Positions 1 through 63,066 of a stretch of DNA of 64,000 bases are shown here, one piece after another. Under the pieces are notes generated by a model. It saw only the letters and a list, made by a program, of their open reading frames with translations, ran no database searches and was not told the origin of the DNA. The position numbers and the translations under genes were made by a program. The DNA lies in NCBI GenBank assembly GCA_964549685.1, contig CAZJVE010000002.1, positions 79,520-143,519 of the forward strand. Reading direction: 5' to 3'. The stretch is from an uncultured archaeon. Lineage in GTDB: Archaea; Altiarchaeota; Altiarchaeia; IMC4; QMZM01. Each line of letters opens with the position of its first letter. Position 1 is the stretch's first letter.

Positions 1-567
1 GGGGCAAAACCGGCATTCCTTGAAGCCAACATCTCGTGCCCCAACGTGGAGCATGAATTCGGCAGCGCCTTCGGAACGGACCCCGGGGCAGCTTCAAGGA
101 TAACGGCAGAGATTAAGAATTCAACCAAAATCCCCCTGATAGTCAAACTGACCCCCAACGTTACTTCTATCCGAGATATTGGAAGGGCCGTTGCCGATGC
201 GGGAGCAGATGCAATCACAGCCATAAACACCTACGGCCCCGGAATGGCAATAAATGCAGAGACTGGAAAGCCCGTTCTCACAAACAAATTCGGGGGGCTG
301 TCGGGCCCTGCCATGAAGCCCATAGCATTGCGATGCGTCTACGAGCTCTACGAGGAGGTGAAGATTCCCATCATAGGCACGGGTGGAATCCAGACAGGCA
401 AGGACATGGCCGAGATGCTGATGGCCGGAGCTTCAGCATGCGGCATTGGAACCGCAATAATGGACCGCGGCATAGAGGCATTCTCCGAAATCTGCAGGGA
501 GCTGGAAGAATTCATGGACAAAAACGGGCATTCCAAGGCCACGGATTTAATCGGAATGTCACACTAG
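1..567 (+). CDS. pyrD: dihydroorotate dehydrogenase (class 1B-type catalytic subunit), C-terminal part; 5' end lies outside the window
   Basis: Frame is open from base 1. Motifs IVKLTPNV, GGLSGPAMKPIALR and IIGTGGI are typical of the PyrD FMN barrel. Confidence 0.85.
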   Translation, partial: GAKPAFLEANISCPNVEHEFGSAFGTDPGAASRITAEIKNSTKIPLIVKLTPNVTSIRDIGRAVADAGADAITAINTYGPGMAINAETGKPVLTNKFGGLSGPAMKPIALRCVYELYEEVKIPIIGTGGIQTGKDMAEMLMAGASACGIGTAIMDRGIEAFSEICRELEEFMDKNGHSKATDLIGMSH

Positions 568-1250
568 CCTGAGTTAATCCAGTCATTTATTATGTCTAGA
601 AGGTCGCTGCTGTCTATCTCTCCGCTGGCCCACCGGTTTATCGCATTCACTATCTCGTCCAGCGTCACCTCGCCGTCGCTGTTTTCATCCGCCGGGAGCC
701 CGGAGGCAATATCCACTGAAACGTCCCCGTCTATATCTGCTGTAACCTCAGATTCGGTGTCCGGGTCTATGTACGTGTATTGCCCCGCAATCTCCACGGT
801 GCCGGACGCATTCTCCGGCACGCCGACAGTATATGTGATATTCCTCGTATAGAAGTTGGATGAGAACAACAGCCATTTAATCTCCCCTGTTTCGGTGTCA
901 TGGGAGGTGTATGCCGGGCTGGGGCCGGTAGCGCTCCATCCCGGGGGAATGTATTCATTAATGGTAACGGCGTTCGGGGGGCTGTCCCCTTTGACAACAA
1001 GCAGGGTTACCTCGAGGCCGGTTTCAGGCGATGCCGAGGATGGCAGCTCCCTGCTCACGGCCACGGTCGTTGCAACAGAACCCGGCGGCCCTGGCGGAAG
1101 CGGATATGCAGTAGTCGTTGTCGTAACGTCATCCGGAGGCGCCGGCGGAGTCATAAGTGTCAGTAAGCCGATTATGGTCGGCTTGAAGACCGCTATTGAC
1201 GCGAGAAAAATAAAAATCAGAATCGCCATATGGAGAGGCTGCGCTTTCAT
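564..1250 (-). CDS. small secreted/anchored protein with C-terminal dockerin-like module
   Basis: N-terminal hydrophobic segment MAILIFIFLASIAVF, a Pro/Thr linker, a beta-sandwich-like middle (INEYIPPGW...GEIKW...YTVGVPENASG), and a C-terminus DENSDGEVTLDEIVNAINRW...LLDIINDW. Confidence 0.7.
   Translation of the reverse strand: MKAQPLHMAILIFIFLASIAVFKPTIIGLLTLMTPPAPPDDVTTTTTAYPLPPGPPGSVATTVAVSRELPSSASPETGLEVTLLVVKGDSPPNAVTINEYIPPGWSATGPSPAYTSHDTETGEIKWLLFSSNFYTRNITYTVGVPENASGTVEIAGQYTYIDPDTESEVTADIDGDVSVDIASGLPADENSDGEVTLDEIVNAINRWASGEIDSSDLLDIINDWINSG
567..689 (-). other. dockerin-like C-terminal module, copy 1 of 6
   Basis: DENSDGEVTLDE has EF-hand/dockerin loop spacing (D1, N3, D5, G6, E12). 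It is followed by helix IVNAINRW and a second loop-less helix LLDIINDW. Confidence 0.6.
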
Positions 1251-4914: not shown

Positions 4915-7900
4915 CTATGTGCAAAGAGGGATATCTGCTGTATCCATCCCCATATACGGTGAGAAGCACGTATCCGAGTCATAGTCGTCTATGCAGCCAT
5001 CCTGATTCAGGTCATGGCTTGAAGTATAACCTGGATCGCCCGCGCATAAGTCCAGGCTTATTTGCATCGACAAATAATCAGCATAATCAACCTCTGCATC
5101 GCCGTTTAGGTCTGGACACAGCACGCATCCCGTAGCAATGCTCGTAGTTGTTAGGGTGGTGCTTGTCGTAGTGCTCGAAGCCCCGCTACTCCACGCGTTT
5201 ATCAGGTCTATTACATCCGCCAGATTCGCCTGGTCATTGGACCAGAGAGTTATCAGGTCTATCACTTCTGAGAGACTCACGTCACCACAGGGTGCGCTGT
5301 CGCCAACCAGAGTGCAGTCCCCCGATATTGTTGTGCTGGTGCTTGTCGTAGTTGTGGTTGTAGCGCCCTCCTCGGCACATTCTATCTTGGATACATTGAC
5401 CCCCCACACCGTGATGGAGCCGTCCGAGTCAAAGACGAACTTCATGTCGTCCGTTTCATAGTACTCGGTCCAGTTGTAGTCCCCCCCGCTCCAGGTGCCG
5501 TCTATCGTATCCAGGCTGGAGCCCTCGCCCGTTTTTATGTAGAGGTAGTCGTACCCCGACTCCGTAATCGCCTTCATATATGCCCTCATTGACGAGCCGG
5601 AGCTGCATTGATATTCATAGGAGGCGCAGTCCAGGTAATTCGAATACGGGTGCGGCGTTTCGAATGCTATGCTATGCTGCCCCAGGCCAAAGGAGCCGCC
5701 CGAATCCATGCTGCAGCCCGATGCGATGGTGGACGTGGTCAAGACCGTCGTCGTGCTCGTTGATGTGGATGTTGTCGATGTGGTTGTTGTGCCATTTATT
5801 GATGTCGATGTTGAGCTCGTGGAGGTGCTGCTTGTTGATGTGCTGCTGCTAGTGGATGTAGACGTCGTGGTAGTCCCGGTAACCGTAACCGCGGCATTGC
5901 TACTCCTTACTGTCTGAAGTTGCGGGTTTCCGCTGTTGTAGGTCCTTATATCTACGGTGTCAAGCGTTATGTTGCTGACTCCTGCACCTATCGCCTCGAA
6001 TTTCGCGGACGCTATGCCGGTCCCGGAAGAAGATATGCCGTCCGTCGACCTGACTCTCAGGTACTGCACCGTCCCCTGGGTATTGTTTATGGTCGGTCCG
6101 ACATCGGTATATGCGGTTGAGCTATCCGCAGTCAGGAAATCCCCTATCGTTAGCGAGGTGGCGTTCAGGACGTCCGGGTCAAAGCCGAGATGAATCTCCA
6201 CGCTGTATGCATCTGAAAGCTGGCTGCTGTTAATCTCGACGGAGAAGGTGTCTCCAGCCACGGCGGCTACGCTCGAGGGGTCGATGCTCACGTCCAGCAG
6301 GATTGTGCTTGTGGTGCTCGTCGACGAGGTGCTGGTCGTGGTCGTCTGGTTTGTTATGCTTGTGGTGGTCGACATTGACGTGCTGGTAGAGGTCGTAGTG
6401 CTCGTGGACGTGGTAACAACGCTGCAGTCATACGTGCATCCGGCCGTCCCGCTGTCGCTCCAGGTGCTCGGGTTGTCGCACGTATTCTCGTCCCCTGAAT
6501 TCCCCGATGTGGTGCCTGAAAACTTGAAGTCTGACTCCGTATTACCGCAGATTCGGTTCGAATCCACGTCATTGAACATCGAATCATGGAAGCGGATTCC
6601 GTTCGTGTTGTTGGATATGGTGTTGTTGGCGATTGTGTTACTGGAGGAGCTGCTGAAAGAGATTCCCTTGTCGAAGTCCGTGATGATGCAGTTCCTTATC
6701 TTGTTGCTGGCCCTGAGGTGCATGTAGATTCCGGTGCCGGAGGTGTCCCCGTCCCCGTCAATTTTGTAGTTCTGGCAGTCGAAGATTATGCCGCTCTCGC
6801 CGAACGTAATGCAACTGCCGTCCTGGTCGGTTATGTCCGCGCCGAGGTTCACGGTCGAATAGGTGCCGTCCAGCTTCGTGGTGCAGTCCGCACAGGAGGT
6901 GCAGGTATTCCCTGTCGATACGGTCGTTGTCGTTGAGGTCAAGCTCGTGCTTGTAGATGTTGACGTGCTCGTCGATGTACTGGTCGAGGTGGATGTCGAC
7001 GTCGTGCTACTACTACTGGTCGTCGTAGTGCCAGACGTAACGACGCTGAATGCAAGGTCGTCATCATCTCCGTAGGTTCCGGTATAGCAGCTGCTTCCGC
7101 CACCCCACTTCCAGCCGATTATCGCCCTCACGTATTGGGTGCTACTGGCGTCATCCACGGTAAAGCTCGTGGAGTAAGTTCCTGTGGTTCCGGGGTAATC
7201 GCACTGGGAGTCTATAAGGAGCACTCTCCAGCCAGTGCCGTTATAATACCATATCTCTACTCTGTCATTGGAATCATAGCACTCCACCAGGACCTCCACG
7301 TTAACGGTGTCCCCCGCATTCACTCCGCAGGAGGAGCCCACGTTCGTAAGGGTAATCCCCTCTATGTCGTCCTCGCCGTTGCAGCTCGCCGCCCCGGCGC
7401 AGGAATCCGCCAGGATATTGTCGGTGCAGCCGTTGCTCCCAAGGCACGCGCTCCCGCACTGGCACTGCGTAACTACGGTTGAGGTCGTGCTTGTAGAGCT
7501 AGTAGTTGATGTTGTCGTGCTGGTAGAAGACGTGCTGCTGGACGTTGTCTGGGTTATCGTGCTAGTGGTGCTGGTCGAACTCGTGCTAGTGGTGCTGTAG
7601 CAGTTAATCGTCTCGACATCGATGCCCCAGTCTGTTTGAGAACCGTCGGATGTGAACCTGAACTGGATGCTCCTCGTGTTGGGGTGCTCCCTCCATACGT
7701 AGCCCTGTGAATCCCCGCACCAGTACGTGCTTGTGCCGGTGTCGGCGTTTATTATGTAGAACTTGTCATAATTGCACGTGGAATGGTACTCAATATCGTG
7801 CTTTACATAGACCTTTCCGTAGTAGCTGGATGGGCAGGTATAGGTGTTCGAAGAGCAATCCATGTTGTTGGGATAAGTGTGCGGGGTCTGGAAATCGATT

Positions 7901-10277: not shown

Positions 10278-13200
10278 CTAGCCCGAGGACCAGGCACTTA
10301 TCAGGTCTATCACGTCCGCAAGGCTTGCGCCGTCCGCTGCCCACAGGCTTATCAGGTCGATTACTTCTGCCAGACCCACTTCGCCGCAGGGCGGGTCGTC
10401 TCCTACTAGGTCACAGCCCCCGGATATTGTGGTGCTGGTCGATGTCGTGCTTGTCGTCGTTCCTGCTATTGTCGTAGAGGTACTCGTGCTGGTTGATGTC
10501 GTAGTAGTCGCGCTGCACGCATAGGTGCATCCGGTCGTCCCGTCGTCGCTCCAGTCTCCCGGAATATCGCATGTGTTCTCATCGCCTGAGTTCCCTGAGT
10601 TGCTGCCCGAGAACGAGAAATCAGCCTCGGTGTTGGAACAGACGGTGTTGGAATTCACCGTGTTGTACATGGCGCTCGAGAAACGGATTCCCTCAACGTT
10701 ATTTGATACGGTATTGTTAACAAGGGTGCTGAAAGACGTGGAGCTGAGCAATATCCCCTTGTCAAACCCGGTAATGACGCAGTTTCTTATGGTACTGTCC
10801 GATTTCAAATGCAAATAGATTCCCGTTCCATAATCGTCTCCGTCCCCGTCGATTGTATGGCCCTGGCAGTCGAACTCTATATTGCCGTCGCTGAATGTGA
10901 TGCAGTTCCCGTCCTTGTTCGATATGCTCGCAGTCAGCTGAACCGTGGAGTAGGTCCCGTCCAGCTTCGCGTTGCAGCCGGAGCATGAGCTGCAAGTATT
11001 CCCTGCTGACAATGTGGTGGTGGTCGATGTCGACGTAGTCGAGGTGGTCAATGTGCTGCTGGTTGACGTCGTTGTGCTGGTTGTTGTTGCGCCGGCGCAG
11101 GTATAGCTGCATCCCGTAACTCCTGTGTCGTTCCATCCAGCTACCGTGTCGCAGCTATTCTCGTCGCCGGAATTATCCGTGCCGTTGGCGAAGTAAAAAT
11201 CCTCCTGCGTGTTGGAGCAGAAGCGGTTCGAACTTATGGTGTTGTTATCGGAGTTATAGATGCGGATTCCGTTTATGCCATTGGACTGTGCGGTGTTTGC
11301 CGTAATTGTATTATTGTCGGCTGATGTCCCAACGAACATTCCCTGCCAGGTGTTCGAGTTCATGGTGTTGTTGGTTATCGTGTTGTAGCTGCCGCCGACA
11401 TAAATCCCCCGGTATGTGTTGGAGTTTGCGGTGTTGTTGGCGATGGTATGGTAGTCGGACAGGAGAGACAGGTATATTCCGCCGTCGTTGTTTGATGCGT
11501 TGTTGTCCGTAATCGTGGCGCCGTCTGAATAGTATACATAAATCCCATTCCCGCTGTTTGAGGTTAGGGTGTTGTTCAAAATGGTGTTGTTGTTCGAGCC
11601 ATAGAGGTAGATGCCGTCTGAGAAACCAGTAATTATGCAGTTCCTCACGGTGTTGTTGTCTTTATAGAGCATGAATATTCCGTCATTTATGCCCGAACTG
11701 TCAATTGTATAGCCCTGGCAGTCGAACTCGACGTTGTCGGAATTGAAGGTGATGCATCTGCTGGGGTAATCTGTTATGTTCGTGGTCAGCTTAACCACAG
11801 TGTAGTTCCCGTCGAGCTTGTTGCTGCAATCCTCGCATGAGCTACAGGTCGTTTCCAACTGCCATGCGCTTGAGTTCAACGGATAATAATCTGCAGTATT
11901 ATTCACTCCGTCCCCATCACAATCAGTGCAGTAGGTCAGGTCATAGTCCAGCATCGGCTTGTTGCTGGCGAGAGCATAGTATTCGAAGCCGTTCTCCAAG
12001 GCACCGCCATAGACATCGACGTTGAGCCAGTATATCCCGTTCTCAGTGGCCTCATAGTAAACGTGCTCCACATTGTCCTTGTTGCTCGCGGACCAGTTGA
12101 GCATCTCGTTCATGTCTCCGTCATAAAGATAGAGGTCGAAGTCCGTCAAATCTGCAGGAGTAAGATTGTAGTTGGTAACATTCCTCCTCCAGACAATGGT
12201 TGCCGTGATGTTCGTCGGGGCATCGTCCACATAGACTCGGGTATACCTGTCCGAGGCATTGTAGACAAGCCTTGAGTGCAGCAGGTAGCCCGTGGGGTCT
12301 GTCGACGGCCTGCTTATATAAGTCCTGTATGCATCAACGGCATTCAGAAGCCCGGCCCCCTGCGTCCTGTCCAGGGGCTCAAGGTGTGTATGGCTCCATC
12401 CCGACAGCTTCGTCGCAGAGTTCATGATTGCGGCCTTCATAAGGACCGGGTCATTCGTTTTCGAATTCAAATCTCCCCAGTGGAAGAGCATTGCAGCAAC
12501 CCCCGACACATGGGGCGTTGCCTGGCTCGTTCCGCTCTTCGTGGTATAATCGTCTATCTCCTCAGGCCAATCGCTCCAGTTATAGTTGCAGGACCATATG
12601 TCGTCCCCGGGCGCCAGGACGTCTATCTTCGTCCTGCCGTCATCCGTTACATTCCTTCCGCTGTCACTGTCCAGGGCCAGGCCCTTTGTCACCGAACCCA
12701 CCGTGATTCCGTTATAGTTGTCCCCCGGAGCCTCGATGTGCGAATCTGGATTGTTCGTCGAGTCCCTGTTGCCTGCGCAGACTATGAACGGAGTATTCCT
12801 CTGATATGCGATGTAATCCACGAATTTTGTAAGCTCAAAATTGCCTGTCGTGCTGACCTCGACATAGGACCGTGCCTGGCTCATGCTTATTATGTTCGCG
12901 CCGTTGTCTATGGCCCAGTTCACTCCCGCATAGAGGTATTTCACTGCGTCATCCAGCTCCGTTATCGAGGCCTTCACGTTTATTATGTCTGCATTCGGAG
13001 CCACCCCTGGGTAAAGGTCGTCCTGGCTCGCGATAATGCACGCGACATGCGTTCCGTGTCCCTGAATATCCTCGGTGCTCCCGTCGGGGTCCGCATCGGT
13101 ATAGAAGTTCCCTCCATTAACAAGATTATTATCGATAGCGGGGTGCGTGCTGTTGACTCCCGTATCTACGACAGCGACCGTAGCCAGAGAAGCCCCCGAT

Positions 13201-13367
13201 ACGTTGCTCGTAATCTCATCGGCCCTGATAAGCCCCACGGAATTATCCAGGGCGGTCTTGATTCCTCCCCTGGACGCATCGTTGGAGTTCTCGGCACTGA
13301 AAGCACCGTAGCTCAGGACTATCAAACAAACCAGAACAAATAAGTTCCTGTTTTTCATCTTAATCAA
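10278..13367 (-). CDS. secreted S8 subtilisin-like protease with two beta-helix modules and a dockerin-like C-terminus (1029 aa)
   Basis: Signal peptide MIKMKNRNLFVLVCLIVLSYGAFS and triad motifs VAVVDTGVN, HGTHVAC, GTSQATPHVSG. The N-terminal ~470 aa are clearly paralogous to the 1771-aa protease. Two PbH1 modules (11097..11846 and 10515..10997). Confidence 0.9.
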   Translation of the reverse strand: MIKMKNRNLFVLVCLIVLSYGAFSAENSNDASRGGIKTALDNSVGLIRADEITSNVSGASLATVAVVDTGVNSTHPAIDNNLVNGGNFYTDADPDGSTEDIQGHGTHVACIIASQDDLYPGVAPNADIINVKASITELDDAVKYLYAGVNWAIDNGANIISMSQARSYVEVSTTGNFELTKFVDYIAYQRNTPFIVCAGNRDSTNNPDSHIEAPGDNYNGITVGSVTKGLALDSDSGRNVTDDGRTKIDVLAPGDDIWSCNYNWSDWPEEIDDYTTKSGTSQATPHVSGVAAMLFHWGDLNSKTNDPVLMKAAIMNSATKLSGWSHTHLEPLDRTQGAGLLNAVDAYRTYISRPSTDPTGYLLHSRLVYNASDRYTRVYVDDAPTNITATIVWRRNVTNYNLTPADLTDFDLYLYDGDMNEMLNWSASNKDNVEHVYYEATENGIYWLNVDVYGGALENGFEYYALASNKPMLDYDLTYCTDCDGDGVNNTADYYPLNSSAWQLETTCSSCEDCSNKLDGNYTVVKLTTNITDYPSRCITFNSDNVEFDCQGYTIDSSGINDGIFMLYKDNNTVRNCIITGFSDGIYLYGSNNNTILNNTLTSNSGNGIYVYYSDGATITDNNASNNDGGIYLSLLSDYHTIANNTANSNTYRGIYVGGSYNTITNNTMNSNTWQGMFVGTSADNNTITANTAQSNGINGIRIYNSDNNTISSNRFCSNTQEDFYFANGTDNSGDENSCDTVAGWNDTGVTGCSYTCAGATTTSTTTSTSSTLTTSTTSTSTTTTLSAGNTCSSCSGCNAKLDGTYSTVQLTASISNKDGNCITFSDGNIEFDCQGHTIDGDGDDYGTGIYLHLKSDSTIRNCVITGFDKGILLSSTSFSTLVNNTVSNNVEGIRFSSAMYNTVNSNTVCSNTEADFSFSGSNSGNSGDENTCDIPGDWSDDGTTGCTYACSATTTTSTSTSTSTTIAGTTTSTTSTSTTISGGCDLVGDDPPCGEVGLAEVIDLISLWAADGASLADVIDLISAWSSG
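10281..10415 (-). other. dockerin-like module, copy 3 of 6
   Basis: GCDLVGDDPPCGEVGLAEVIDLISLWAADGASLADVIDLISAWSSG. Confidence 0.6.
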
Positions 13368-13396: not shown

Positions 13397-16018
13397 TTAT
13401 TGGTTCGCCCAGTTATCGATGGCATCGATTACGTCAGCCAATTCGGCCTCCTCGTTCTGCCAGAGGTTTATGATATCTATGACCTCTGCCAGGCTCACCT
13501 CCCCATCGCAGTCAGAATCGCCCGTTAGACACACTATCGTCGTGCTCGTGGACGTGGTGCTGGTCGAGGTGGTCGTGGTTAGCACTGTCATGCTCAGGTC
13601 CCATTCTACTGGTATGAAGTTCTGCTTCGTTACTGTGAGGTTCATGGAGTCGTTGCCGGCGACGGTTACCTGAAGCGCCGCATCGCCCGAGGAATTGGTG
13701 TAGGCATTGGCGTATGAGCCCGAGTTCTGCAGGCAGACCCTCGCATCCTCGACAGGGCCGGCTGAACCGTTAACGGAAACCACTATTGAATTCTCCCCCA
13801 GATAAATCTCGCTGGGGAATTCCACGGTGAAATTCTCCGGGACCGAGGTCCATATCGGAACCTCAGGGTCTCCCAGGAGGTTGTAGTCCGCAAAGTTCTT
13901 CTTCGAGGCATCTCCGCCGCCCCATCCCTCATCCGTTGGCCACTGGTTGACGTAATACCATCTCTTCATGTCCGCCAGCGTCTTCCCCGGCTGATGGCTT
14001 CCGTTGATGAACTGCTCGAAGAACCTGTAAACCAGCTCCTGGTTGAAGCCGTCGCCAAGGACCCATCCCTGCGTGTAGTAGCTGGTCCTTGTGGCCCCCA
14101 CATAGCCGATGGCCCAGTTCTTCAGCACCTCGTTGCCGAGAGAGCCTGTCTGGTCGAATGCCCCGGTTAAACAGGAATCTGCATAGACAAGCGGCAGCAT
14201 CCCGCCGTTTGCAGGGTCCGTCCCGGTATCTACAAAGGCGTCGCATGTCTGGCACGGTACCGACACGGTATATAGCCCGTGGCCTGACCAGGTTACAAGG
14301 GAATTCCCATAGCCTGCATAGGTCTCAAAATTGGAATATGTGAGTGCAGCATCCCTGTCGTACGTGCTGGAATGATACAGTCTGTAATTCGAGAAATTCC
14401 CCGGTTCCAGTAAATCAGCCCTGACCAGCTCCATCAGATAGGCATCGTCAGTGGTGTCGTCGGATACCCCTCCCGCAAGAACCGCCCTCGAGAACCACTC
14501 GCTGCTGTTCGTGGGCGGTGATTTCTCATAGCTGATTATGGCACTGACAAGGCTCTCAATCTCCGTTGCTGTTGATACCGGCAGCCTCCCGACGTAGACG
14601 TCGGGAATCCAGTCCGTTACCTCGTCCCCGACCCCGGTGTGTTCATTCTCTCCATAGTTGGAGTCCCAGTCGCTATTCCAGTCCCCGCCAAGGCAGCTAT
14701 AGTAGTAGTCGGTCGGCACACTATCCTCGTCGCCTTCATACCAGTCCCTGCTCACTCTCAACGAGGGGACCTGGCTGTCCGAGCCTGCAAGAAGAACCCA
14801 TTCCGCCCCCTCGCTGTATCTGTCGATGATGAAATCCCTAATCATCTTCTGCGGTGGATTCTCATGGGAATTCAAATCCATTGCACTGAAGCCGGAAACG
14901 GTCCAGTTGGTGGTTGAATTCCCCTCCGCCAGGAAGAGAACTTCCTGGTCCGTAACTACAGAAACATTGTCCAGCCACCAGCCGCCGAAGCTGACGTAGG
15001 TGTCGGTAACATAGTAGAACCTAAGGTAGATTTCCTCCCCGGCGTAGCTGTCCATGTTTATAGTATCCTGCACCCAGGAGCTGTTCCCGGTATAGGCATA
15101 GGCGCCCTCCGTCCCTACATAGGCCTCCGGCTCCCGGTAGTCGGTCATCTGCCCGCCCTGCAGTTGGGTCCAGTTTTCTCCATTGCTTGAGACCTCGATG
15201 TAGCCAAAGTCCCAGCCCTTCTCGACCTTGAATTTTGTCATGAGCGTCAGCTTCGCAGTGGTTGCATTGCTCAGGTTCAGTGTTCTCTGCATATAGTTGC
15301 TCTGGTCGTTGCCTGTCCCAGAATGGAAAACATAGTTCTCGGTTCCGTTGTAGCTCTGATAAATCCACTGCACGGTATATATCTCTGCTGGAACGCCCTT
15401 CTTCGTCTTCCATTCCTTCAATGGCTCCAGGGAAGAGTTCAAAGAGGAGTCGGTTATTATCAGATACTTCGTTGCGTTGGAGACAGTAAGTGTGCCCACC
15501 TTTCTCTTCTTCGGGAGTTCGTATTCAAGGCGTAGCGAGACCCTCCTATGGAAGAGCAGGCTGCCACCACTATATTGCAGCGGGAAGATTGAGACCGATA
15601 CCAGCTTGTGGTCCTTAAAACCATCGATAATCCAGAAGGAATAGACGTCTTCTGGGAACAGAAGGGACTGACCACCTGCCGTTTTAAGCGCCGGGGGATT
15701 CCCCCCTGTAGTCATGATTACGGGCTGCTTCGACAGGACAAGGCCATCGACCTCGCCGAGGGATTCCGTTTCTGTGTCCTCCAGAATTACCTGAATATTC
15801 ATAGCATCCCGGGGAATTTCCACGAACTCTCTCTTCATGGGTAGCCTTGGTTCATTGGGAATGGCTGTAAAATCAAGGCCCGGAATCTCATACTGGATTC
15901 CCTCATCGCTCTGGAATGCCGTCGGCTCCTGGAACTCAAAATCCAGATGCGTGCTCTCGGCCGAGACCGAGGCCGAAAGAAGGAAAAGCAACAGCAGCGC
16001 TCCAAACCTGTTCGACAT
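13397..16018 (-). CDS. secreted C25 (gingipain-like) cysteine protease with inserted MAM/InhA-like beta-sandwich and dockerin-like C-terminus
   Basis: Start moved to ATG 16018 (MSNRFGALLLLFLLSASVSA signal peptide). LIITDSSL...LKEWKTKKG, VYVGRLPV, catalytic-type WSGHG and YADSCLTG. Insert GWDFGYIEVSSNGENWTQL. C-terminal Thr linker plus module. Confidence 0.75.
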   Translation of the reverse strand: MSNRFGALLLLFLLSASVSAESTHLDFEFQEPTAFQSDEGIQYEIPGLDFTAIPNEPRLPMKREFVEIPRDAMNIQVILEDTETESLGEVDGLVLSKQPVIMTTGGNPPALKTAGGQSLLFPEDVYSFWIIDGFKDHKLVSVSIFPLQYSGGSLLFHRRVSLRLEYELPKKRKVGTLTVSNATKYLIITDSSLNSSLEPLKEWKTKKGVPAEIYTVQWIYQSYNGTENYVFHSGTGNDQSNYMQRTLNLSNATTAKLTLMTKFKVEKGWDFGYIEVSSNGENWTQLQGGQMTDYREPEAYVGTEGAYAYTGNSSWVQDTINMDSYAGEEIYLRFYYVTDTYVSFGGWWLDNVSVVTDQEVLFLAEGNSTTNWTVSGFSAMDLNSHENPPQKMIRDFIIDRYSEGAEWVLLAGSDSQVPSLRVSRDWYEGDEDSVPTDYYYSCLGGDWNSDWDSNYGENEHTGVGDEVTDWIPDVYVGRLPVSTATEIESLVSAIISYEKSPPTNSSEWFSRAVLAGGVSDDTTDDAYLMELVRADLLEPGNFSNYRLYHSSTYDRDAALTYSNFETYAGYGNSLVTWSGHGLYTVSVPCQTCDAFVDTGTDPANGGMLPLVYADSCLTGAFDQTGSLGNEVLKNWAIGYVGATRTSYYTQGWVLGDGFNQELVYRFFEQFINGSHQPGKTLADMKRWYYVNQWPTDEGWGGGDASKKNFADYNLLGDPEVPIWTSVPENFTVEFPSEIYLGENSIVVSVNGSAGPVEDARVCLQNSGSYANAYTNSSGDAALQVTVAGNDSMNLTVTKQNFIPVEWDLSMTVLTTTTSTSTTSTSTTIVCLTGDSDCDGEVSLAEVIDIINLWQNEEAELADVIDAIDNWANQ
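13400..13534 (-). other. dockerin-like module, copy 4 of 6
   Basis: VCLTGDSDCDGEVSLAEVIDIINLWQNEEAELADVIDAIDNWANQ. Confidence 0.6.
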
Positions 16019-25863: not shown

Positions 25864-25967
25864 TATATATATTTATATATATCTAAGTATAAAAAGGTTT
25901 TGGTTTTTGCGGATTTGTACAAGAAGTGAATCCGAAAGGGATTAATACCTATGAGGCAAATACTTTA

Positions 25968-28187
25968 ATGCTTAAAATGAAGTACGGGCTCTTGATACTG
26001 CTGGTGGTGTTATCACAGGTTGCGGTGGTAGACTCGAATGTTATAATCAATGAAGTGATGTACAATCCGAACCAGTGCACCGACTCGTATTGTGAATGGA
26101 TTGAGCTGTATAATCCCACCGCATCAGCCGTGGATGTGAGTGGATGGGGCCTGTCGGATGATACTGCGACTGACACATTAGAGGGAACCAACACAGTTAT
26201 TCCCGCCTATGGGTATGCAATAATAACGGATAAAACGACCTACGTCTACAGCTACTTTAACGTTAATGCATCGGCTATCAGACTCACCGTTGATGACGAG
26301 AGCATCGGCAACGGACTTGGTAACAGTGGCGAGAGCATAGGGATATCGTCAGGCAACTACTCCGATTCAATGACATATTACGGTAATGAACTGGCAGGAT
26401 ATTCAACCGAAAAAATAGGGTCCAGCTGGACGGAGAGCGTCGCACTGGGCGGAACTCCAGGTTCGGCCAATGGGGCCGCAGCGACAACCACCTCCACGAC
26501 AACAACCACAACGACATCGTCCACGACAACAACCAGCGTCCCAATCGCAGCCGTAATAATCAACGAAATAATGTATGACCCAAACCAGTGCAGCGATACA
26601 TACTGTGAGTGGATAGAGCTCTACAACCCCACAGGCTCGTCGGTTAATATTTCCAACTGGACTATCTCAGATGACAGTGCAACCGATACCCTGATGGGGA
26701 CCACCATGGTCATCCCGGCCTATGGTTATGCCATAATCACGGACGTCACCAACAATGTCTACAGCAGCTTCAACGTTAGTGCATCCGCTATCCGGCTTAC
26801 GGTGGATGATGAGAGCATCGGCAACGGATTAGGTAACACAATCGGAGAAACCATAACTCTGTCCTATAGTACGTATTCTGACTCGGTAAGTTATTCCATA
26901 GGGGGTACACCGGGATATTCTGTCGAGAAAACAGGCTCTGGCTGGGCTCAGAGTGCCGTAGATGGCGGCACGCCGGGCAGCGCAAACAGCGGAACGACTA
27001 CGACGACCACTACCACAACAACGACCGCTGCAAGCACGTCTACGACAACAGCCCCTGCTACGACGTCCACTACAACAAGCACGTCTACGACGGTGACTGG
27101 TACGACCACCACGAGCACATCCACGACCGTAACCAGTACGACATCTACCACGAGCACGTCTACGACTGTGACTAGCACGACATCCACTACGAGCACATCC
27201 ACGACAGTGACTGGTACAACAACCACGTCCACTACAAGCACGTCCACGACAGTAACTGGCACAACAACCACGTCCACTACGACCACCACAACGACCAGCA
27301 CGACCACAACGATATCCGGAGAGCTGGAGGTAACATCGGCACAGGCCTCCCTGGGCGAAACGGTTACAGTCGATATAAGGGTTAACAGCGCCCCCAATGA
27401 AGTTAGTGCATTTGGATTCGACTTAACATATGATGGAGACGTCCTCCTGTATCAGGCTTATTGGAACGGGAGCATTATCGAGGGCTATGATTACCTTGGC
27501 GTGAATGACATCTCACTAGATACGGTCAGGGTCGGCGCATTTACGACCCAGAACGCAATACAGGCCGGAGAATCCGGAAGCATTTTGGAAGTGGACTTCA
27601 CAGTCGTAGGCTGCTATAATATCTCACTTGGGCTGACAAACCTTGTGGATGATGTTTCCTCCTGGGAAGTAAGCAATGGGACCTTTACCTGTACGGGGGC
27701 CGCTACAACGACTACCTCCACCACCACAACATCCTCAACAACCACGACACTGGATGGCGTGGTTGAATACATAGATATAGGGGACTCTGAATTCTTCCCC
27801 AATCCCATGCCCATAGTGTTGGGAAGGTATGTAAGATGGATCAACTTTGATGCAATCCCGCACCAGGTAATGATGGATTCGGGTCAGGGCATAGACTATA
27901 CGAGTGCGGTATTATCCCAGTATCAGGAATCAACAGTCCTGCTGATAAATGATACAGGCACCTACACCTATCACTGTCACCTGCATCCTGAAATGACCGG
28001 CACAATCGAAGTCAACGCTGAAACCACGACCACCCTTGGAGAATGTCTTACCGGAGACCTCGACTGCGATGGAACAGTGGGTTTGGACGAGGTAGTGGAC
28101 GTGATTACCCTTTGGACGGAGGGCCAGGCCCTTCTCAGCGAGGTAGTAGAGGCCATAACCAACTGGGAGGCGCAGGCGGGGGGCTAG
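25968..28187 (+). CDS. secreted LTD-LTD-cohesin-cupredoxin protein with dockerin-like C-terminus
   Basis: Start at MLKMKYGLLILLVVLSQVAVV (signal peptide). Domain order is listed in the following rows. Confidence 0.8.
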   Translation: MLKMKYGLLILLVVLSQVAVVDSNVIINEVMYNPNQCTDSYCEWIELYNPTASAVDVSGWGLSDDTATDTLEGTNTVIPAYGYAIITDKTTYVYSYFNVNASAIRLTVDDESIGNGLGNSGESIGISSGNYSDSMTYYGNELAGYSTEKIGSSWTESVALGGTPGSANGAAATTTSTTTTTTTSSTTTTSVPIAAVIINEIMYDPNQCSDTYCEWIELYNPTGSSVNISNWTISDDSATDTLMGTTMVIPAYGYAIITDVTNNVYSSFNVSASAIRLTVDDESIGNGLGNTIGETITLSYSTYSDSVSYSIGGTPGYSVEKTGSGWAQSAVDGGTPGSANSGTTTTTTTTTTTAASTSTTTAPATTSTTTSTSTTVTGTTTTSTSTTVTSTTSTTSTSTTVTSTTSTTSTSTTVTGTTTTSTTSTSTTVTGTTTTSTTTTTTTSTTTTISGELEVTSAQASLGETVTVDIRVNSAPNEVSAFGFDLTYDGDVLLYQAYWNGSIIEGYDYLGVNDISLDTVRVGAFTTQNAIQAGESGSILEVDFTVVGCYNISLGLTNLVDDVSSWEVSNGTFTCTGAATTTTSTTTTSSTTTTLDGVVEYIDIGDSEFFPNPMPIVLGRYVRWINFDAIPHQVMMDSGQGIDYTSAVLSQYQESTVLLINDTGTYTYHCHLHPEMTGTIEVNAETTTTLGECLTGDLDCDGTVGLDEVVDVITLWTEGQALLSEVVEAITNWEAQAGG
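26034..26465 (+). other. lamin-tail domain (LTD) 1
   Basis: VIINEVMYNPNQ...CEWIELYNPTASAVDVSGWGLSDD... Confidence 0.65.
26544..26981 (+). other. lamin-tail domain (LTD) 2
   Basis: VIINEIMYDPNQ...CEWIELYNPTGSSVNISNWTISDD... It is a close internal duplicate of LTD1. Confidence 0.65.
26991..27317 (+). repeat. Thr/Ser-rich linker encoded by imperfect tandem repeats
   Basis: Repeating TSTSTTVT(G/S)TT(T)TS units encoded by ACN/AGC-rich ~40-nt repeats. Confidence 0.8.
27318..27698 (+). other. cohesin-like domain
   Basis: ELEVTSAQASLGETVTVDIRVNSAPNEVSAFGFDLTYDGDVLLYQ...GSILEVDFTVVG. Confidence 0.55.
27750..28016 (+). other. cupredoxin (amicyanin/plastocyanin-like type-1 Cu) domain
   Basis: INFDAIPHQV supplies the N-terminal His ligand. 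YTYHCHLHPEMTG has C-x2-H-x2-M spacing like amicyanin YHCTPHPFM. Confidence 0.65.
28041..28175 (+). other. dockerin-like module, copy 5 of 6
   Basis: ECLTGDLDCDGTVGLDEVVDVITLWTEGQALLSEVVEAITNWEAQ. Confidence 0.6.
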
Positions 28188-60327: not shown

Positions 60328-61652
60328 CAATCCATCCGATGGAGTCCCGCTACGGGCGGGACGAGGTCAGGAGTATTTTTGATGAAGAAAAAAAGCTGGA
60401 GCTGATGCTGGAGGTCGAGGCAGCCCTTGCAAGGGCCCATGCAAAGGCAGGGAACATCCCTGAGAAGGATGCTGCTGCAATCTCCAAGGCCAAAAAAGGC
60501 GTCAAAATCGAGAGGGTCAAGGCGATTGAGGCCGAGATAAACCATGACGTCATGGCGCTGGCCAAGGCCATGGCCGAGCTCAGCGGGGACTCCGGCAAAT
60601 ACGTTCATCTCGGGGCCACAAGCAATGATATTACAGATACTGCGCTTGCATTACAACTTAAGGAATTCGTCGAATTCCTTTCCGAGGACCTGGTGAATTT
60701 GAAGAAGATTCTGCTCGGCCTCGCCAAGAAGCACAAGGCCACAGTATGCATAGGAAGGACCCATGCCCAGCATTCTATCCCGACCACCTATGGACTGAAG
60801 TTCGCAATATTTGCCTCGGAGGTTCAGAGGCATATTCAAAGGCTGGAGGAAACAAAACCGAGAATCCTCGTCGGCAAGATGTCCGGCGCAGTCGGAACCC
60901 AGGCCTCCTTCGGAAAGAAGGGCATTGAGATTCAGGAGTATGTCATGGCGGACCTGGGGCTCAATGCCGCGATGGTCTCGAACCAGGTCATCCAGCGGGA
61001 CAGGCACGCTGAATTTTTGCTGCTGCTGGCATTGATTACAGAGACAATGAACAAGATTGCAACGGAAATCAGGAATCTGCAAAGGACTGAAATCGCTGAG
61101 ATATCAGAGGGCTTCGGCAAGAAGCAGGTCGGCTCCTCGACGATGCCGCATAAGAGGAATCCAATCATTGCCGAGAGGATATGCGGCCTGAGCCGGGTTA
61201 TAAAGGCGGATGCCATGGCATCGCTTGACAACATCCCGCTCTGGCATGAGAGAGACCTGACGAACTCAAGCTGCGAAAGGGTTATCATCCCGGAGGCCTG
61301 CATCCTGACGGACTACATCCTGAACCTCAGCATCAACCTGCTGAAGAATCTCGTTTTCGATAAGGAGCAGATAGAAAAGAACCTGAACCTCTCGCAGGGG
61401 AGAATCATGGCCGAGTCCCTGATGATTAAAATGGTCGAGAAGGGAGTGGGCAGGCAGGTGGCCCACGAGATGCTGAGGAAGGACGCGATGAAGAGCCATG
61501 AGTCTGGAATCCCCTTCAGGGACGTTCTTCTGAACGACAAGAAGGTCATGAAGCACATGAGCGAGAAGGAGCTGACATCCGCCCTTAACCCAAAGAATTA
61601 CACGGGGACTGCGAAAGAGCAGGTCGACAGGATTGTGAAAGAGTTAAGCTAG
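60324..61652 (+). CDS. purB: adenylosuccinate lyase
   Basis: MESRYGRDEV, GATSNDITDTA, and the signature GSSTMPHKRNP. Confidence 0.95.
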   Translation: MTIHPMESRYGRDEVRSIFDEEKKLELMLEVEAALARAHAKAGNIPEKDAAAISKAKKGVKIERVKAIEAEINHDVMALAKAMAELSGDSGKYVHLGATSNDITDTALALQLKEFVEFLSEDLVNLKKILLGLAKKHKATVCIGRTHAQHSIPTTYGLKFAIFASEVQRHIQRLEETKPRILVGKMSGAVGTQASFGKKGIEIQEYVMADLGLNAAMVSNQVIQRDRHAEFLLLLALITETMNKIATEIRNLQRTEIAEISEGFGKKQVGSSTMPHKRNPIIAERICGLSRVIKADAMASLDNIPLWHERDLTNSSCERVIIPEACILTDYILNLSINLLKNLVFDKEQIEKNLNLSQGRIMAESLMIKMVEKGVGRQVAHEMLRKDAMKSHESGIPFRDVLLNDKKVMKHMSEKELTSALNPKNYTGTAKEQVDRIVKELS

Positions 61653-63034
61653 CCCGCCCAGCTGTTTATTGCATCTACCACTGCGGATAGTGAGACCTCT
61701 TCGTTGGCCCATCTGTTTATCATGTTCACGACTTCGGCCAAGGTTACCTCGCCGTCGCAGTTCTCATCCGCCAATGGCTCAAAGCTCGGCGCACCGCAGA
61801 CGAAGGCATCCAGGTAAGGGATGTATACTACCTCAGGCAGGCCAGCATCATCATAGTAGTCATAGATGTATACGTCAATATCCTGTTTGTTGCTGGTGCC
61901 CCACCAGTTGTTTATCATCATTATCTCCTCGCTCGGCATTGAGTGCTCTATGTCGATTGCCCTGACGCCGTATTCGAAATTGTCATGCAGGTTGTTATAC
62001 GAATACTCTCCAAGATACTCATTCACGAATATGCCGATGCTGTTCAGGGTTATGGTGTTGTATGTAATCTCGCCTCCATCGACCATGTCCTCGACGTAGA
62101 TGCCTACCGAGTTGTTGTAGATGAGGTTGTAGCTCAGGCTCACCTCGCCGTAGGCGTCGTTTACGTCAATTCCATAGGTGTTGTTATAGAAGGTGTTGTA
62201 GCTGACCTCGGTCCAGCCCATGACTGCCGCACCGTGCGTGCTTCCATGCACCGTGTTGTTGCTGAAATAGACGTATGACGCCGCTTCTTCTCTCCCTCTC
62301 AGCTCGGGGGTGCAGTTGTTGAATTCGTTCTGGGTTGCATAAATGTGTATGCTGGGGAATATACTCCTCATTATGGCGTTGCTGCCGCAGTTTGTGAATG
62401 TATTGTTGCTTATGTATATGGTGAAGTTCCCGCCCCTTATCTCCATATCCCCATCATAGAATATGGAGTCCATGACGTCAACGGAGGACTCGTAGGTCTC
62501 CAGCCCTGTGTTGTTAAACCTGCAGTATCTCAGGCTATTGTTTCCGCTGATGCTGGTGTATTCGAAGTAGACCACCCCTCCCCCGGAGGAGACGAATTCA
62601 ATCGGGCTTATGGAGTTCCCCTCGGCTATGAGGCCGCCCTCCATGTCAAGGCGGTAGCTGCCGTTGAACTGTACCACTACGCCAGGCCCTATTGTCAGGG
62701 TGCTGTTCTCCTTTACCTCAATGTCGTTCAGCAGGAGGTAGGGGCTGTCGGCCAGAGTCCATGTCGTGTCTCCCTTGATGTCCCCTGTCACGTAGGTGGG
62801 AATCAGCGTCGATGTGGTTGAGGTGGATGTTGTGCTGGTTGTTGATGTGGTTGAGGTCGTTGAAGTTGATGTGGTCGAGGTGCTTGTCGTTGATGTCGTT
62901 GAGGTGGATGTAGTAGATATTGTGCTTGTTGATGTTGTTGAAGAGGTGCTTGTGGAGGTGGTCGTCTGAGCGGCAACACCAATGCTAAGGAAAAGCAGCC
63001 CAATCAATAAGAAGAGTGCCTTGCGCTTAATCAT
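61649..63034 (-). CDS. secreted beta-helix (PbH1-repeat) protein with dockerin-like C-terminus
   Basis: Start at MIKRKALFLLIGLLFLSIGVAAQ (ATG 63034; upstream ATG 63070 also possible). An ~80-aa Thr/Ser linker, repeated N.(I/F)..N..G(I/V) beta-helix turns, and the C-terminal module. Confidence 0.75.
   Translation of the reverse strand: MIKRKALFLLIGLLFLSIGVAAQTTTSTSTSSTTSTSTISTTSTSTTSTTSTSTTSTSTTSTTSTTSTTSTSTTSTLIPTYVTGDIKGDTTWTLADSPYLLLNDIEVKENSTLTIGPGVVVQFNGSYRLDMEGGLIAEGNSISPIEFVSSGGGVVYFEYTSISGNNSLRYCRFNNTGLETYESSVDVMDSIFYDGDMEIRGGNFTIYISNNTFTNCGSNAIMRSIFPSIHIYATQNEFNNCTPELRGREEAASYVYFSNNTVHGSTHGAAVMGWTEVSYNTFYNNTYGIDVNDAYGEVSLSYNLIYNNSVGIYVEDMVDGGEITYNTITLNSIGIFVNEYLGEYSYNNLHDNFEYGVRAIDIEHSMPSEEIMMINNWWGTSNKQDIDVYIYDYYDDAGLPEVVYIPYLDAFVCGAPSFEPLADENCDGEVTLAEVVNMINRWANEEVSLSAVVDAINSWAG
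61652..61777 (-). other. dockerin-like module, copy 6 of 6
   Basis: PLADENCDGEVTLAEVVNMINRWANEEVSLSAVVDAINSWAG. Confidence 0.6.
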
Positions 63035-63066
63035 ATTAGGAATTAGCTCATGAGCGTATAAATCTC

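What the first reader, a model, noticed from the sequence alone, without database searches (positions are those of the whole stretch)
13400..13534. Atypical half-dockerin: one EF-hand loop plus a loop-less second helix, often with a Cys pair
Canonical dockerins have two 22-residue repeats, each with a DxNxDGxxxxxD Ca loop. Here only the first segment keeps loop spacing: DSDCDGEVSLAE, DLDCDGTVGLDE, DENCDGEVTLAE and DENSDGEVTLDE. It is degenerate in the two S8 copies (DDPPCGEVGLAE and DSAPCGDVSLSE). The second segment retains only the helix (L-A-D-V-I-D-x-I-x-x-W). Both helices end in an invariant Trp. Four copies carry two Cys 6-8 residues apart that could form a disulfide across the loop. This looks like a distinct subfamily, possibly single-mode binding, rather than a decayed dockerin, because the second helix is as conserved as the first.
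Basis: seen in the sequence. Interest (0 to 1): 0.65.

Follow-up and report, generated by a model that had tools for sequence, protein, structure and literature searches.

The report
Altiarchaeal two-helix surface docking module
The 45-residue tail of this archaeal protease belongs to an undescribed small domain seen so far only in Altiarchaeota, attached to many of their secreted proteins; it has a calcium-type or cysteine-bridged loop followed by two tryptophan-capped helices, and it probably tethers those proteins to a shared partner, much as a dockerin does, without being a true dockerin.

Summary
Six copies of a ~45-aa module occur in the window, scoring 50-79 bits in leave-one-out HMM tests against at most 16 bits for shuffles.

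- The module is a conserved family, not decay. An exhaustive search found at least 500 representative clusters.
- All 27 stretches hit by a helix-spanning DNA pattern in 185,579 species genomes lie in Altiarchaeota MAGs.
- It does not qualify as a dockerin. No member hits Pfam Dockerin_1, and hhalign against verified dockerins gives 0.9% probability.
- The two "degenerate" S8 copies are actually the family norm: C-x3-[DN]-x-P-P-C-G-E-V with a co-varying Cys pair.
- The four copies with a canonical EF-hand loop ending in Glu are a rare variant.
- The module is a tandem duplication of a 17-residue loop-helix unit. AlphaFold2 gives a loop plus two helices (pLDDT 93).

It sits mostly at the C-terminus of secreted proteases, beta-helix proteins and glycosidases, but also occurs N-terminally, internally and in tandem. 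My best reading is a lineage-specific docking module with an unknown partner, stapled by Ca2+ or by a disulfide. Cohesins and one true dockerin co-occur in the window, so cohesin binding remains a live rival.

The parts
13400..13531 (-). The module of the finding (copy D). It forms the C-terminal 44 aa of a secreted C25 peptidase with an InhA-like MAM insert (gene 13397-16018).
   Evidence: Family HMM 62 bits. AlphaFold2 pLDDT 93.
13484..13519 (-). Copy D: the 12-residue EF-hand-type Ca2+ loop DSDCDGEVSLAE. Ligand positions are 1 D, 3 D, 5 D, 6 G, 8 V, 9 S and 12 E.
   Evidence: Matches the PROSITE-type EF-hand loop pattern (pattern quoted from memory). The profile of the EF-type subset hits EF-hand proteins at E 1e-7 to 1e-2.
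13508..13531 (-). Copy D: the Cys pair (codons 13529-13531 and 13508-13510), one Cys before the loop and one at loop position 4.
   Evidence: Read directly from the sequence. Family-wide covariation of the two Cys is shown.
13457..13492 (-). Copy D helix 1 (LAEVIDIINLWQ), ending in the invariant Trp.
   Evidence: AlphaFold2 helix at residues 19-30 of the 49-aa construct. Column statistics.
13403..13441 (-). Copy D helix 2 (LADVIDAIDNWAN), a sequence repeat of helix 1 at an offset of 17 residues.
   Evidence: AlphaFold2 helix at residues 36-48. Repeat test.
10281..10415 (-). Copy C, of the PPC/Cys-pair type. C-terminus of an S8 peptidase with parallel beta-helix repeats (gene 10278-13367).
   Evidence: 71 bits. 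AlphaFold2 gives the same two helices with a less confident loop.
5182..5316 (-). Copy B, of the PPC/Cys-pair type. It is internal, at aa 1639-1683 of a 1771-aa S8 peptidase (gene 4915-10230).
   Evidence: (75 bits).
28044..28184 (+). Copy E, EF-hand type with a Cys pair. C-terminus of a protein with two lamin-tail domains, a cohesin and a cupredoxin domain (gene 25926-28187).
   Evidence: 53 bits.
61652..61780 (-). Copy F, EF-hand type. C-terminus of a 473-aa secreted beta-helix-like protein (gene 61649-63070).
   Evidence: 62 bits.
567..701 (-). Copy A, EF-hand type without any Cys. C-terminus of a 228-aa protein with an N-terminal hydrophobic segment (gene 564-1250).
   Evidence: 56 bits.
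5881..6300 (-). Cohesin domain inside protein B, a candidate receptor.
   Evidence: Pfam PF00963, 29.6 bits against a cutoff of 24.1. Coordinates.
27321..27692 (+). Cohesin domain inside protein E, a candidate receptor.
   Evidence: Pfam PF00963, 44.7 bits. Coordinates.
4945..5118 (-). Canonical two-loop dockerin at the very C-terminus of protein B, downstream of copy B. It shows that the genome also uses ordinary dockerins.
   Evidence: Pfam Dockerin_1 21.9 bits (cutoff 22.9). PDB dockerins 2y3n_B at E 5.7e-6 and 5lxv_B at E 0.005.

Best explanation
The segment is one copy of an undescribed extracellular mini-domain of about 45 aa, found here only in Altiarchaeota. It consists of a 12-residue loop followed by two amphipathic 12-residue helices that each end in I-N-x-W, and it arose by tandem duplication of a 17-residue loop-helix ('F-hand'-like) unit.

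In four window copies the first loop is a complete EF-hand Ca2+ site. In most of the family two Ca ligands are replaced by Pro and Cys, and a co-varying Cys pair takes over. The small fold is therefore probably stapled by Ca2+, by a disulfide, or by both.

The module is fused to unrelated secreted proteins: S8 and C25 peptidases, beta-helix proteins, glycosidases and Ig-like proteins. In the window it follows a Thr/Ser-rich linker in about half the copies. I infer that it is a docking module. It would tether many different secreted proteins to one shared partner on the cell envelope, working like a dockerin without being a Dockerin_1 member.

Shown: the family, its anatomy, its taxonomic restriction, its positions in proteins, and its failure to match dockerin models. 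Inferred: Ca2+ binding, the disulfide, the docking function and the partner.
For: - Six copies in 64 kb, all in proteins with N-terminal signal-like hydrophobic segments. Leave-one-out scores are far above shuffles.
- An exhaustive profile search found at least 500 representative clusters at E<=1e-3 and 230 at E<=1e-10.
- Of the 149 best domains, 133 lie within 20 residues of the C-terminus and 8 lie just after the signal peptide. Others are internal or tandem.
- Partner domains are diverse and extracellular: NosD/beta-helix in 27 of 85 proteins, plus S8, C25, CARDB, amylase and fucosidase.
- A degenerate DNA pattern spanning both helices hits 27 stretches in 185,579 species genomes, all in 5 Altiarchaeota MAGs.
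- The 17-residue internal repeat shows 6.9 of 17 identities at offset 17, against at most 2.0 at other offsets.
- The two Cys co-vary: both present 139, both absent 4, one only 2.
- Four copies fit the EF-hand loop pattern and the EF-type profile hits EF-hand proteins.
- AlphaFold2 predicts a loop plus two helices, pLDDT 93 for copy D and 77 for copy C with the same helices.
- No Pfam or NCBIfam family covers the module.
Against: - No partner has been identified and no binding data exist.
- The conserved residues are mostly hydrophobic and could all be structural.
- A strong C-terminal bias (89%) is also what a sorting signal would show.
- The structural searches are uninformative for so small a fold.
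- Extracellular disulfides are less expected in an anaerobe, so the Cys pair might instead bind a metal.
- The top-150 list is biased toward the PPC type, because half of the query profile was of that type.
Confidence: 0.5

Rival explanations
1. It is a genuine but highly divergent, truncated dockerin. Like the ~40-aa Group 2 dockerins of Ruminococcus flavefaciens, it would have one Ca2+ loop, one cohesin-binding helix and a second helix. It would bind the cohesin domains of proteins B and E, possibly two modules per cohesin.
For: - Two Pfam-significant cohesins lie in the same window, both in proteins that also carry the module.
- The best PDB sequence hit of the six-copy profile is the first repeat of a R. 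flavefaciens ScaA dockerin, 5n5p_B, at E 1.8e-4.
- The loop-helix-loop-helix topology and the size match those described for RfDoc2, PDB 9GVB, which binds its cohesin 2:1 (PMC12270676).
- The module is used in the way dockerins are used, on diverse secreted enzymes.
Against: - There is no Dockerin_1 hit for any of the 72 family members at E<=10.
- hhalign of the family against dockerins gives 0.9% probability. The EF-type subset matches only across the loop and matches EF-hand proteins better.
- Loop position 12 is Glu, not the Asp of dockerins.
- The repeat period is 17, not about 22 plus a linker.
- 9GVB and other dockerins are absent from the Foldseek hits.
- Protein B carries a true dockerin next to the module, which suggests two separate functions.
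- No cohesin-like ORF was found in the other fetched loci, about 220 kb and mostly Altiarchaeal, which hold 37 further modules.
- Cohesin is not among the families shared by 2 or more of 85 module proteins.
Confidence: 0.2
2. It is a self-association module. Helical hairpins from two or more proteins would pack into a four-helix bundle, cross-linking secreted proteins into a surface or biofilm matrix without a dedicated receptor.
For: - Six to seven of the eleven positions in each helix are hydrophobic, more than a 45-aa monomer can bury.
- Natural tandem pairs of modules exist, in P0003-P0006 and loci L016 and L024-L026.
- Truncated dockerins of R. flavefaciens sit side by side as a pair (PMC12270676).
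Against: - AlphaFold2 folds the monomer with high confidence.
- There is no direct evidence for oligomers.
- The tandem copies could equally present two binding sites to a receptor.
Confidence: 0.15
3. It is a secretion or sorting tag for crossing or attaching to the outer membrane of these double-membraned archaea. It would be recognised, and perhaps removed, by a dedicated peptidase such as the C25/PorU-like protein D, by analogy with T9SS C-terminal domains.
For: - 133 of 149 domains are at the extreme C-terminus.
- Protein D is a C25 peptidase with weak similarity to the PorU T9SS sortase, E 4.9e-10.
- Altiarchaeota have two membranes (PMC4460559).
- SecD and SecF are encoded next to protein A.
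Against: - The N-terminal, internal and tandem positions are incompatible with a cleavable C-terminal signal.
- There is no transmembrane segment or basic tail.
- The T9SS C-terminal domain is a beta-sandwich, not a helical hairpin.
- The peptidase itself carries the tag.
Confidence: 0.1
4. It is a decayed or chance dockerin-like remnant without a function of its own.
For: The second loop is incomplete, and the first loop lacks Ca ligands in two of the copies.
Against: - There are at least 500 representative clusters with near-invariant residues.
- Helix 2 is as conserved as helix 1.
- The module is far more conserved than the proteins that carry it.
Confidence: 0.01

Closest known systems
Group 2 'naturally truncated' dockerins of Ruminococcus flavefaciens (RfDoc2, PDB 9GVB; Duarte et al., J Biol Chem 2025, PMC12270676)
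   Same: Both are about 40-45 aa. [quoted passage not shown] Both are appended to varied extracellular proteins.
   Different: RfDoc2 is clearly homologous to full-length Group 4 dockerins, and only one of its helices contacts the cohesin. Here the two helices are sequence repeats of each other with a 17-aa period and invariant Trp caps. Loop position 12 is Glu. Most family members have no complete Ca site but a Cys pair. No sequence or fold match to 9GVB or to Dockerin_1 was detected.
Type I dockerin (Pfam Dockerin_1, PF00404), e.g. C. thermocellum Xyn10B dockerin 1OHZ_B
   Same: Both are built from a duplicated loop-helix (F-hand) unit with no entering helix. Both are usually C-terminal on secreted enzymes. 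Cohesins are present in the same genome.
   Different: A type I dockerin is about 70 aa, with two 22-residue repeats, two Ca2+ sites, Asp at loop position 12 and three helices. The module is 45 aa with at most one Ca site and two helices, and gives no HMM match.
Canonical EF-hand (Pfam EF-hand_1, PF00036; PROSITE PS00018)
   Same: Four window copies have a complete 12-residue DxDxDGxVxxxE loop with the exiting helix. These give the best PDB sequence hits of the EF-type profile.
   Different: There is no entering helix and no paired second EF-hand. Scores stay below the Pfam cutoff (at most 18.9 bits against 25.4). The setting is extracellular. Most family members lack ligand positions 3 and 5.

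Membership tests
Dockerin type I (Pfam PF00404) | Match to the Dockerin_1 profile at or above its gathering score | tested here: not met
   No Dockerin_1 hit at E<=10 for the six window copies or for 72 family members. As a positive control, the C-terminus of protein B scores 21.9 bits.
Dockerin type I (Pfam PF00404) | Two ~22-residue repeats, each with a DxNxDGxxxxxD Ca2+ loop (Asp at position 12) | tested here: not met
   There is at most one complete loop, and it ends in Glu. The repeat period is 17. The second unit keeps only Gly (position 6) and Asp/Glu (position 12).
Dockerin type I (Pfam PF00404) | Profile-profile similarity to verified dockerins over both repeats | tested here: not met
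   hhalign of family A3 against dockerin alignment A6 gives probability 0.9% over 15 columns. The EF-type subset A7 gives 71%, but only over the 16 loop columns.
Dockerin type I (Pfam PF00404) | Ca2+-dependent binding to a cohesin | not testable with these tools
   Cohesins are present in the window. No binding or complex prediction was possible, because the structure tool returns no coordinates or interface scores.
R. flavefaciens Group 2 truncated dockerins | About 40-45 aa with Ca loop - helix - loop - helix topology | tested here: met
   AlphaFold2 predicts a loop, H19-30 and H36-48, with pLDDT 93. The RfDoc2 topology is described in PMC12270676.
R. flavefaciens Group 2 truncated dockerins | Detectable homology to a full-length dockerin group or to RfDoc2 (9GVB) | tested here: not met
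   9GVB is absent from the PDB profile hits for A1 and A3 at E<=10, from the 60 best of 268 hits listed for A7 at E<=1, and from the Foldseek hits. The only dockerin hit is 5n5p_B, at E 1.8e-4 to 0.03.
EF-hand (PROSITE PS00018 / Pfam PF00036) | 12-residue Ca2+ loop consensus | tested here: met
   Met by copies A, D, E and F. Not met by the S8 copies B and C, nor by about 140 of 145 family domains (pattern quoted from memory).
EF-hand (PROSITE PS00018 / Pfam PF00036) | Pfam score above cutoff, and a helix-loop-helix with an entering helix, normally paired | tested here: not met
   The best EF-hand_1 score is 18.9 bits, below the 25.4 cutoff. No helix precedes the loop in the model. The second unit has no complete loop.
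Excalibur extracellular Ca-binding domain (PF05901) and other Pfam/NCBIfam C-terminal anchor or sorting domains | Profile match | tested here: not met
   Pfam returned no such family at E<=10, and NCBIfam returned none at E<=1.

The most novel reading that the evidence does not exclude
Altiarchaeota use their own universal surface-display system. A 45-aa two-helix tag would dock dozens of secreted enzymes and beta-helix proteins per genome onto a still unidentified envelope receptor, independent of cohesin-dockerin. The same mini-fold would be held together interchangeably by an EF-hand Ca2+ site or by a disulfide-bridged Pro-Pro-Cys loop.
Probability: 0.35. Interest if true: 0.7.

Novelty: new variant of a known kind. 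Interest (0 to 1): 0.55.

Why it matters
Altiarchaeota are abundant, uncultivated, double-membraned carbon fixers of subsurface and marine habitats. How they hold proteins on their envelope is essentially unknown.

A short module shared by a wide range of their secreted proteases, glycosidases and beta-helix proteins is the obvious handle for finding the receptor and mapping the exoproteome.

The family also offers a natural series in which a Ca2+ EF-hand loop and a Cys-bridged loop replace each other in one 45-residue fold: Ca-only, Ca plus Cys pair, and Cys pair only. That series is useful for studying mini-protein stability.

If the module binds tightly, it could serve as a very small affinity tag in the spirit of 'half dockerins'.

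Tried and rejected
- The word-indexed protein search with the domain profiles returned only 43-80-aa ORF fragments, with no names or co-domains. With the cohesin of protein E as query it returned nothing.
I used hand-made degenerate DNA patterns instead.
- Literature searches on Altiarchaeota surface proteins and hami found no description of the module.
- Cluster look-ups gave only 'right-handed parallel beta-helix repeat-containing protein' or 'hypothetical protein' as names.
- A local jackhmmer search with the two window cohesins found no cohesin in about 220 kb of fetched loci, mostly Altiarchaeal.
- I did not predict a cohesin-module complex, because the structure tool returns neither coordinates nor interface confidence.
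- A chance or decayed remnant was rejected.
- A classical sorting signal was considered unlikely because of the N-terminal, internal and tandem copies.
Full report
**Observation.** The stretch 13400-13531 on the minus strand encodes CLTGDSDCDGEVSLAEVIDIINLWQNEEAELADVIDAIDNWANQ. This is the C-terminal 44 residues of a secreted C25-family peptidase with an InhA-like MAM insert. The same protein is on record in an independent marine metagenome assembly. The DNA recurs in marine and seawater metagenomes from four studies.

A motif scan and then a family HMM on the six-frame translation find exactly six copies in the window:
- 567-701 (-)
- 5182-5316 (-)
- 10281-10415 (-)
- 13400-13531 (-)
- 28044-28184 (+)
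- 61652-61780 (-)

In leave-one-out tests each copy scores 49.5-79.2 bits against a profile of the other five. The best of 1000 shuffles scores at most 15.9 bits.

**Organism and context.** The window is chromosomal DNA of a Candidatus Altiarchaeota archaeon. Its aIF5B is 93% identical to that of MAG KR13_N1.mb.66. The window also carries an archaeal DNA ligase, FtsZ, HerA, aminoacyl-tRNA synthetases, SecD/SecF and a V-ATPase subunit.

All six module proteins start with a signal-peptide-like hydrophobic segment. In three of them the module follows a Thr/Ser-rich linker. Their other domains are unrelated to one another:
- S8 peptidase in two proteins, one of them with parallel beta-helix repeats
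- C25 peptidase
- lamin-tail domains plus cohesin plus cupredoxin
- a beta-helix-like protein
- a small protein with no recognised domain (Ig-like by eye)

**The family.** Neither Pfam (2025 copy) nor NCBIfam (June 2026) has a model that covers the module. The only matches are sub-threshold EF-hand hits on the four EF-type copies.

An exhaustive HMMER search of 1.84 billion representative proteins with an 8-sequence profile found at least 500 proteins at E<=1e-3 and 230 at E<=1e-10. Re-analysis of the best 150 proteins gives this consensus:

C-[LM]-x-G-[DN]-Y-P-P-C-G-E-V-T-L-S-E-V-V-D-x-I-N-x-W-A-x-G-x-A-x-L-x-D-V-I-D-L-I-N-A-W-A

E16, I21, W24, L31, V34, I38 and W41 are essentially invariant.

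The DxDxDG EF-hand loop is a rare variant: 5 of 145 domains match the EF-hand loop pattern. A DNA pattern specific for the EF type matches three window copies, no species-representative genome, and only three contigs among 241 million metagenome records.

One caveat applies. Half of the query profile was of the PPC type, so the ranking favours that type.

**Taxonomic range.** A degenerate DNA pattern that spans only the two helices is expected to give about 1e-4 chance hits. It hit 27 stretches in 185,579 bacterial and archaeal species genomes, and all 27 lie in five Altiarchaeota MAGs.

A narrower pattern gave seven Altiarchaeota hits and two short contigs binned to bacteria. Only one of those two carries a real copy.

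**Position and partners.**
- 133 of 149 domains end within 20 residues of the C-terminus.
- Eight lie directly after the signal peptide and are followed by a Thr-rich linker and an enzyme.
- Others are internal, as in window protein B, or occur as tandem pairs. One protein has three copies.

Among 85 full-length carriers the co-domains are NosD/beta-helix (27), S8, C25, CARDB, Laminin_G_3, alpha-amylase, fucosidase, NHL and others. This is the usage pattern of a portable extracellular interaction module. It does not fit a cleavable C-terminal signal.

**Anatomy.** The module is a tandem duplication of a 17-residue unit. Unit 1 is PCGEVTLSEVVDFINLW and unit 2 is AAGQASLGDVIDLINAW. They share on average 6.9 of 17 identities at offset 17, against at most 2.0 at any other offset.

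In EF-hand numbering the first loop keeps positions 1 (D/N), 6 (G), 8 (V/I), 9 (T/S) and 12 (E) throughout the family. Positions 3 and 5 are Asp/Asn only in the EF type. In the majority they are Pro and Cys.

The second unit keeps only the Gly (position 6) and the acidic position 12. It is therefore a vestigial loop rather than a bare helix.

The Cys in the loop and a Cys upstream of it are present together in 139 domains, absent together in 4, and present singly in only 2. This argues for a disulfide or a shared metal site. Copies lacking both Cys (window copy A, P0071, P0135) all have a full EF-hand loop, and hybrids with both features exist (copies D and E). I infer that Ca2+ and the Cys pair are alternative staples of the same loop.

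AlphaFold2 predicts a loop followed by two helices. For copy D these are residues 19-30 and 36-48 of the 49-aa construct, at pLDDT 93. For copy C (PPC type) the helices are the same but the loop is less confident, with overall pLDDT 77.

**Is it a dockerin?** The evidence in favour is limited:
- The six-copy profile's best PDB hit is the first repeat of the R. flavefaciens ScaA dockerin 5n5p_B, at E 1.8e-4.
- Two Pfam-significant cohesins lie in module-bearing proteins B and E.
- The size and the loop-helix-loop-helix topology resemble the naturally truncated Group 2 dockerins of R. flavefaciens (PDB 9GVB). Those keep one Ca2+ repeat and bind cohesin ScaE two at a time (PMC12270676).

The evidence against is stronger:
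- No Dockerin_1 match was found for any of 72 family members.
- hhalign against an alignment of PDB-verified dockerins gives 0.9% probability.
- The EF-type subset aligns with dockerins only over the Ca loop. It matches ordinary EF-hand proteins better (E down to 1.4e-7) than the one dockerin (3e-3), because position 12 is Glu.
- With the broader family profile the dockerin hit fades to E 0.03.
- Protein B carries a genuine two-loop dockerin (2y3n_B, E 5.7e-6) immediately after its module, so the two are unlikely to be redundant.
- No cohesin-like ORF was found in the other fetched loci, about 220 kb and mostly Altiarchaeal, which contain 37 further modules.

Membership in the dockerin family is therefore not supported. 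A dockerin-like mode of action remains plausible.

**Most likely mechanism.** I commit to a lineage-specific docking module at confidence about 0.5. The loop, held by Ca2+ and/or the Cys pair, and the two Trp-capped helices form a very small hydrophobic core. That core presents a conserved surface to a common partner on the envelope, and so tethers many different secreted proteins.

Rivals, in order:
1. A true, extremely divergent truncated dockerin that binds the window's cohesins (0.2).
2. A self-association module that forms helical bundles (0.15).
3. A sorting or secretion tag for the double membrane, possibly handled by the C25/PorU-like peptidase (0.1).
4. Decay or chance, which is refuted.

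**Novelty.** The module family is not in Pfam or NCBIfam, and the literature I could search does not mention it. In kind it is a new variant of the F-hand/dockerin-type docking modules. The nearest precedent is the 2025 description of 'half dockerins' in R. flavefaciens.

Its distinctive points are:
- restriction to Altiarchaeota
- the 17-residue repeat with twin Trp caps
- the interchange of an EF-hand Ca2+ site with a Cys-bridged Pro-Pro-Cys loop

Noticed in passing
window 4945-5118 (-): A genuine two-loop dockerin forms the very C-terminus of the 1771-aa S8 peptidase (protein B), about 20 residues downstream of its module (PDB 2y3n_B E 5.7e-6; Pfam Dockerin_1 21.9 bits, just under the cutoff). 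It contains several Cys residues, which is unusual for a dockerin.
   Followed up: partly
window 5881-6300 (-) and 27321-27692 (+): Cohesin domains (PF00963, 29.6 and 44.7 bits) lie inside proteins B and E. They were missed when the full-length Thr-rich proteins were scanned and were found only when the segments were scanned alone. Protein E also combines two lamin-tail domains with a cupredoxin domain.
   Followed up: partly
window 39923-41572 (-): A full-length serpin (PF00079, E 2.5e-127) with an N-terminal extension of about 180 residues, in an archaeon that encodes several secreted S8 and C25 peptidases nearby.
   Followed up: no
window 13397-16018 (-): The C25 peptidase that carries the module has an InhA-like MAM domain inserted before the catalytic domain. 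It shows weak similarity to the T9SS sortase PorU (NCBIfam NF033707, E 4.9e-10).
   Followed up: no
window 4915-10230 (-), about aa 700-810 and aa 1520-1635 of protein B: Two Cys-rich repeats of about 100 aa that resemble each other (…FQTPHTYPNNMDC… and …FETPHPYSNYLDC…). They look CUB-like by eye, and Pfam did not report them.
   Followed up: no
P0154-P0182 (metagenome gene calls), loci L005, L007, L009, L018, L022, L030, L032: A large subtype of the module ends in a conserved tail, …INSWADPxxYPPN. Many public gene calls of exactly 49 aa (MPGNYPPC…) appear to be this module cut at an internal Met of the C-x-M-P-G-N motif, not real small genes.
   Followed up: partly
L007 3-3357 (+) (Altiarchaeia MAG MFD12011): Three consecutive genes each end in the module, which indicates a tandem array of paralogous secreted proteins.
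   Followed up: no
P0009 (748 aa, JGI metagenome): One protein carries three modules. Two internal EF-like variants precede 'VSRDLP…' Ig-like domains of the kind found in window protein A, and a PPC-type module sits at the C-terminus.
   Followed up: no
window 1315-3992 (+): SecF and SecD genes lie directly next to module protein A (564-1250). The called ORFs overlap by about 58 bases.
   Followed up: no
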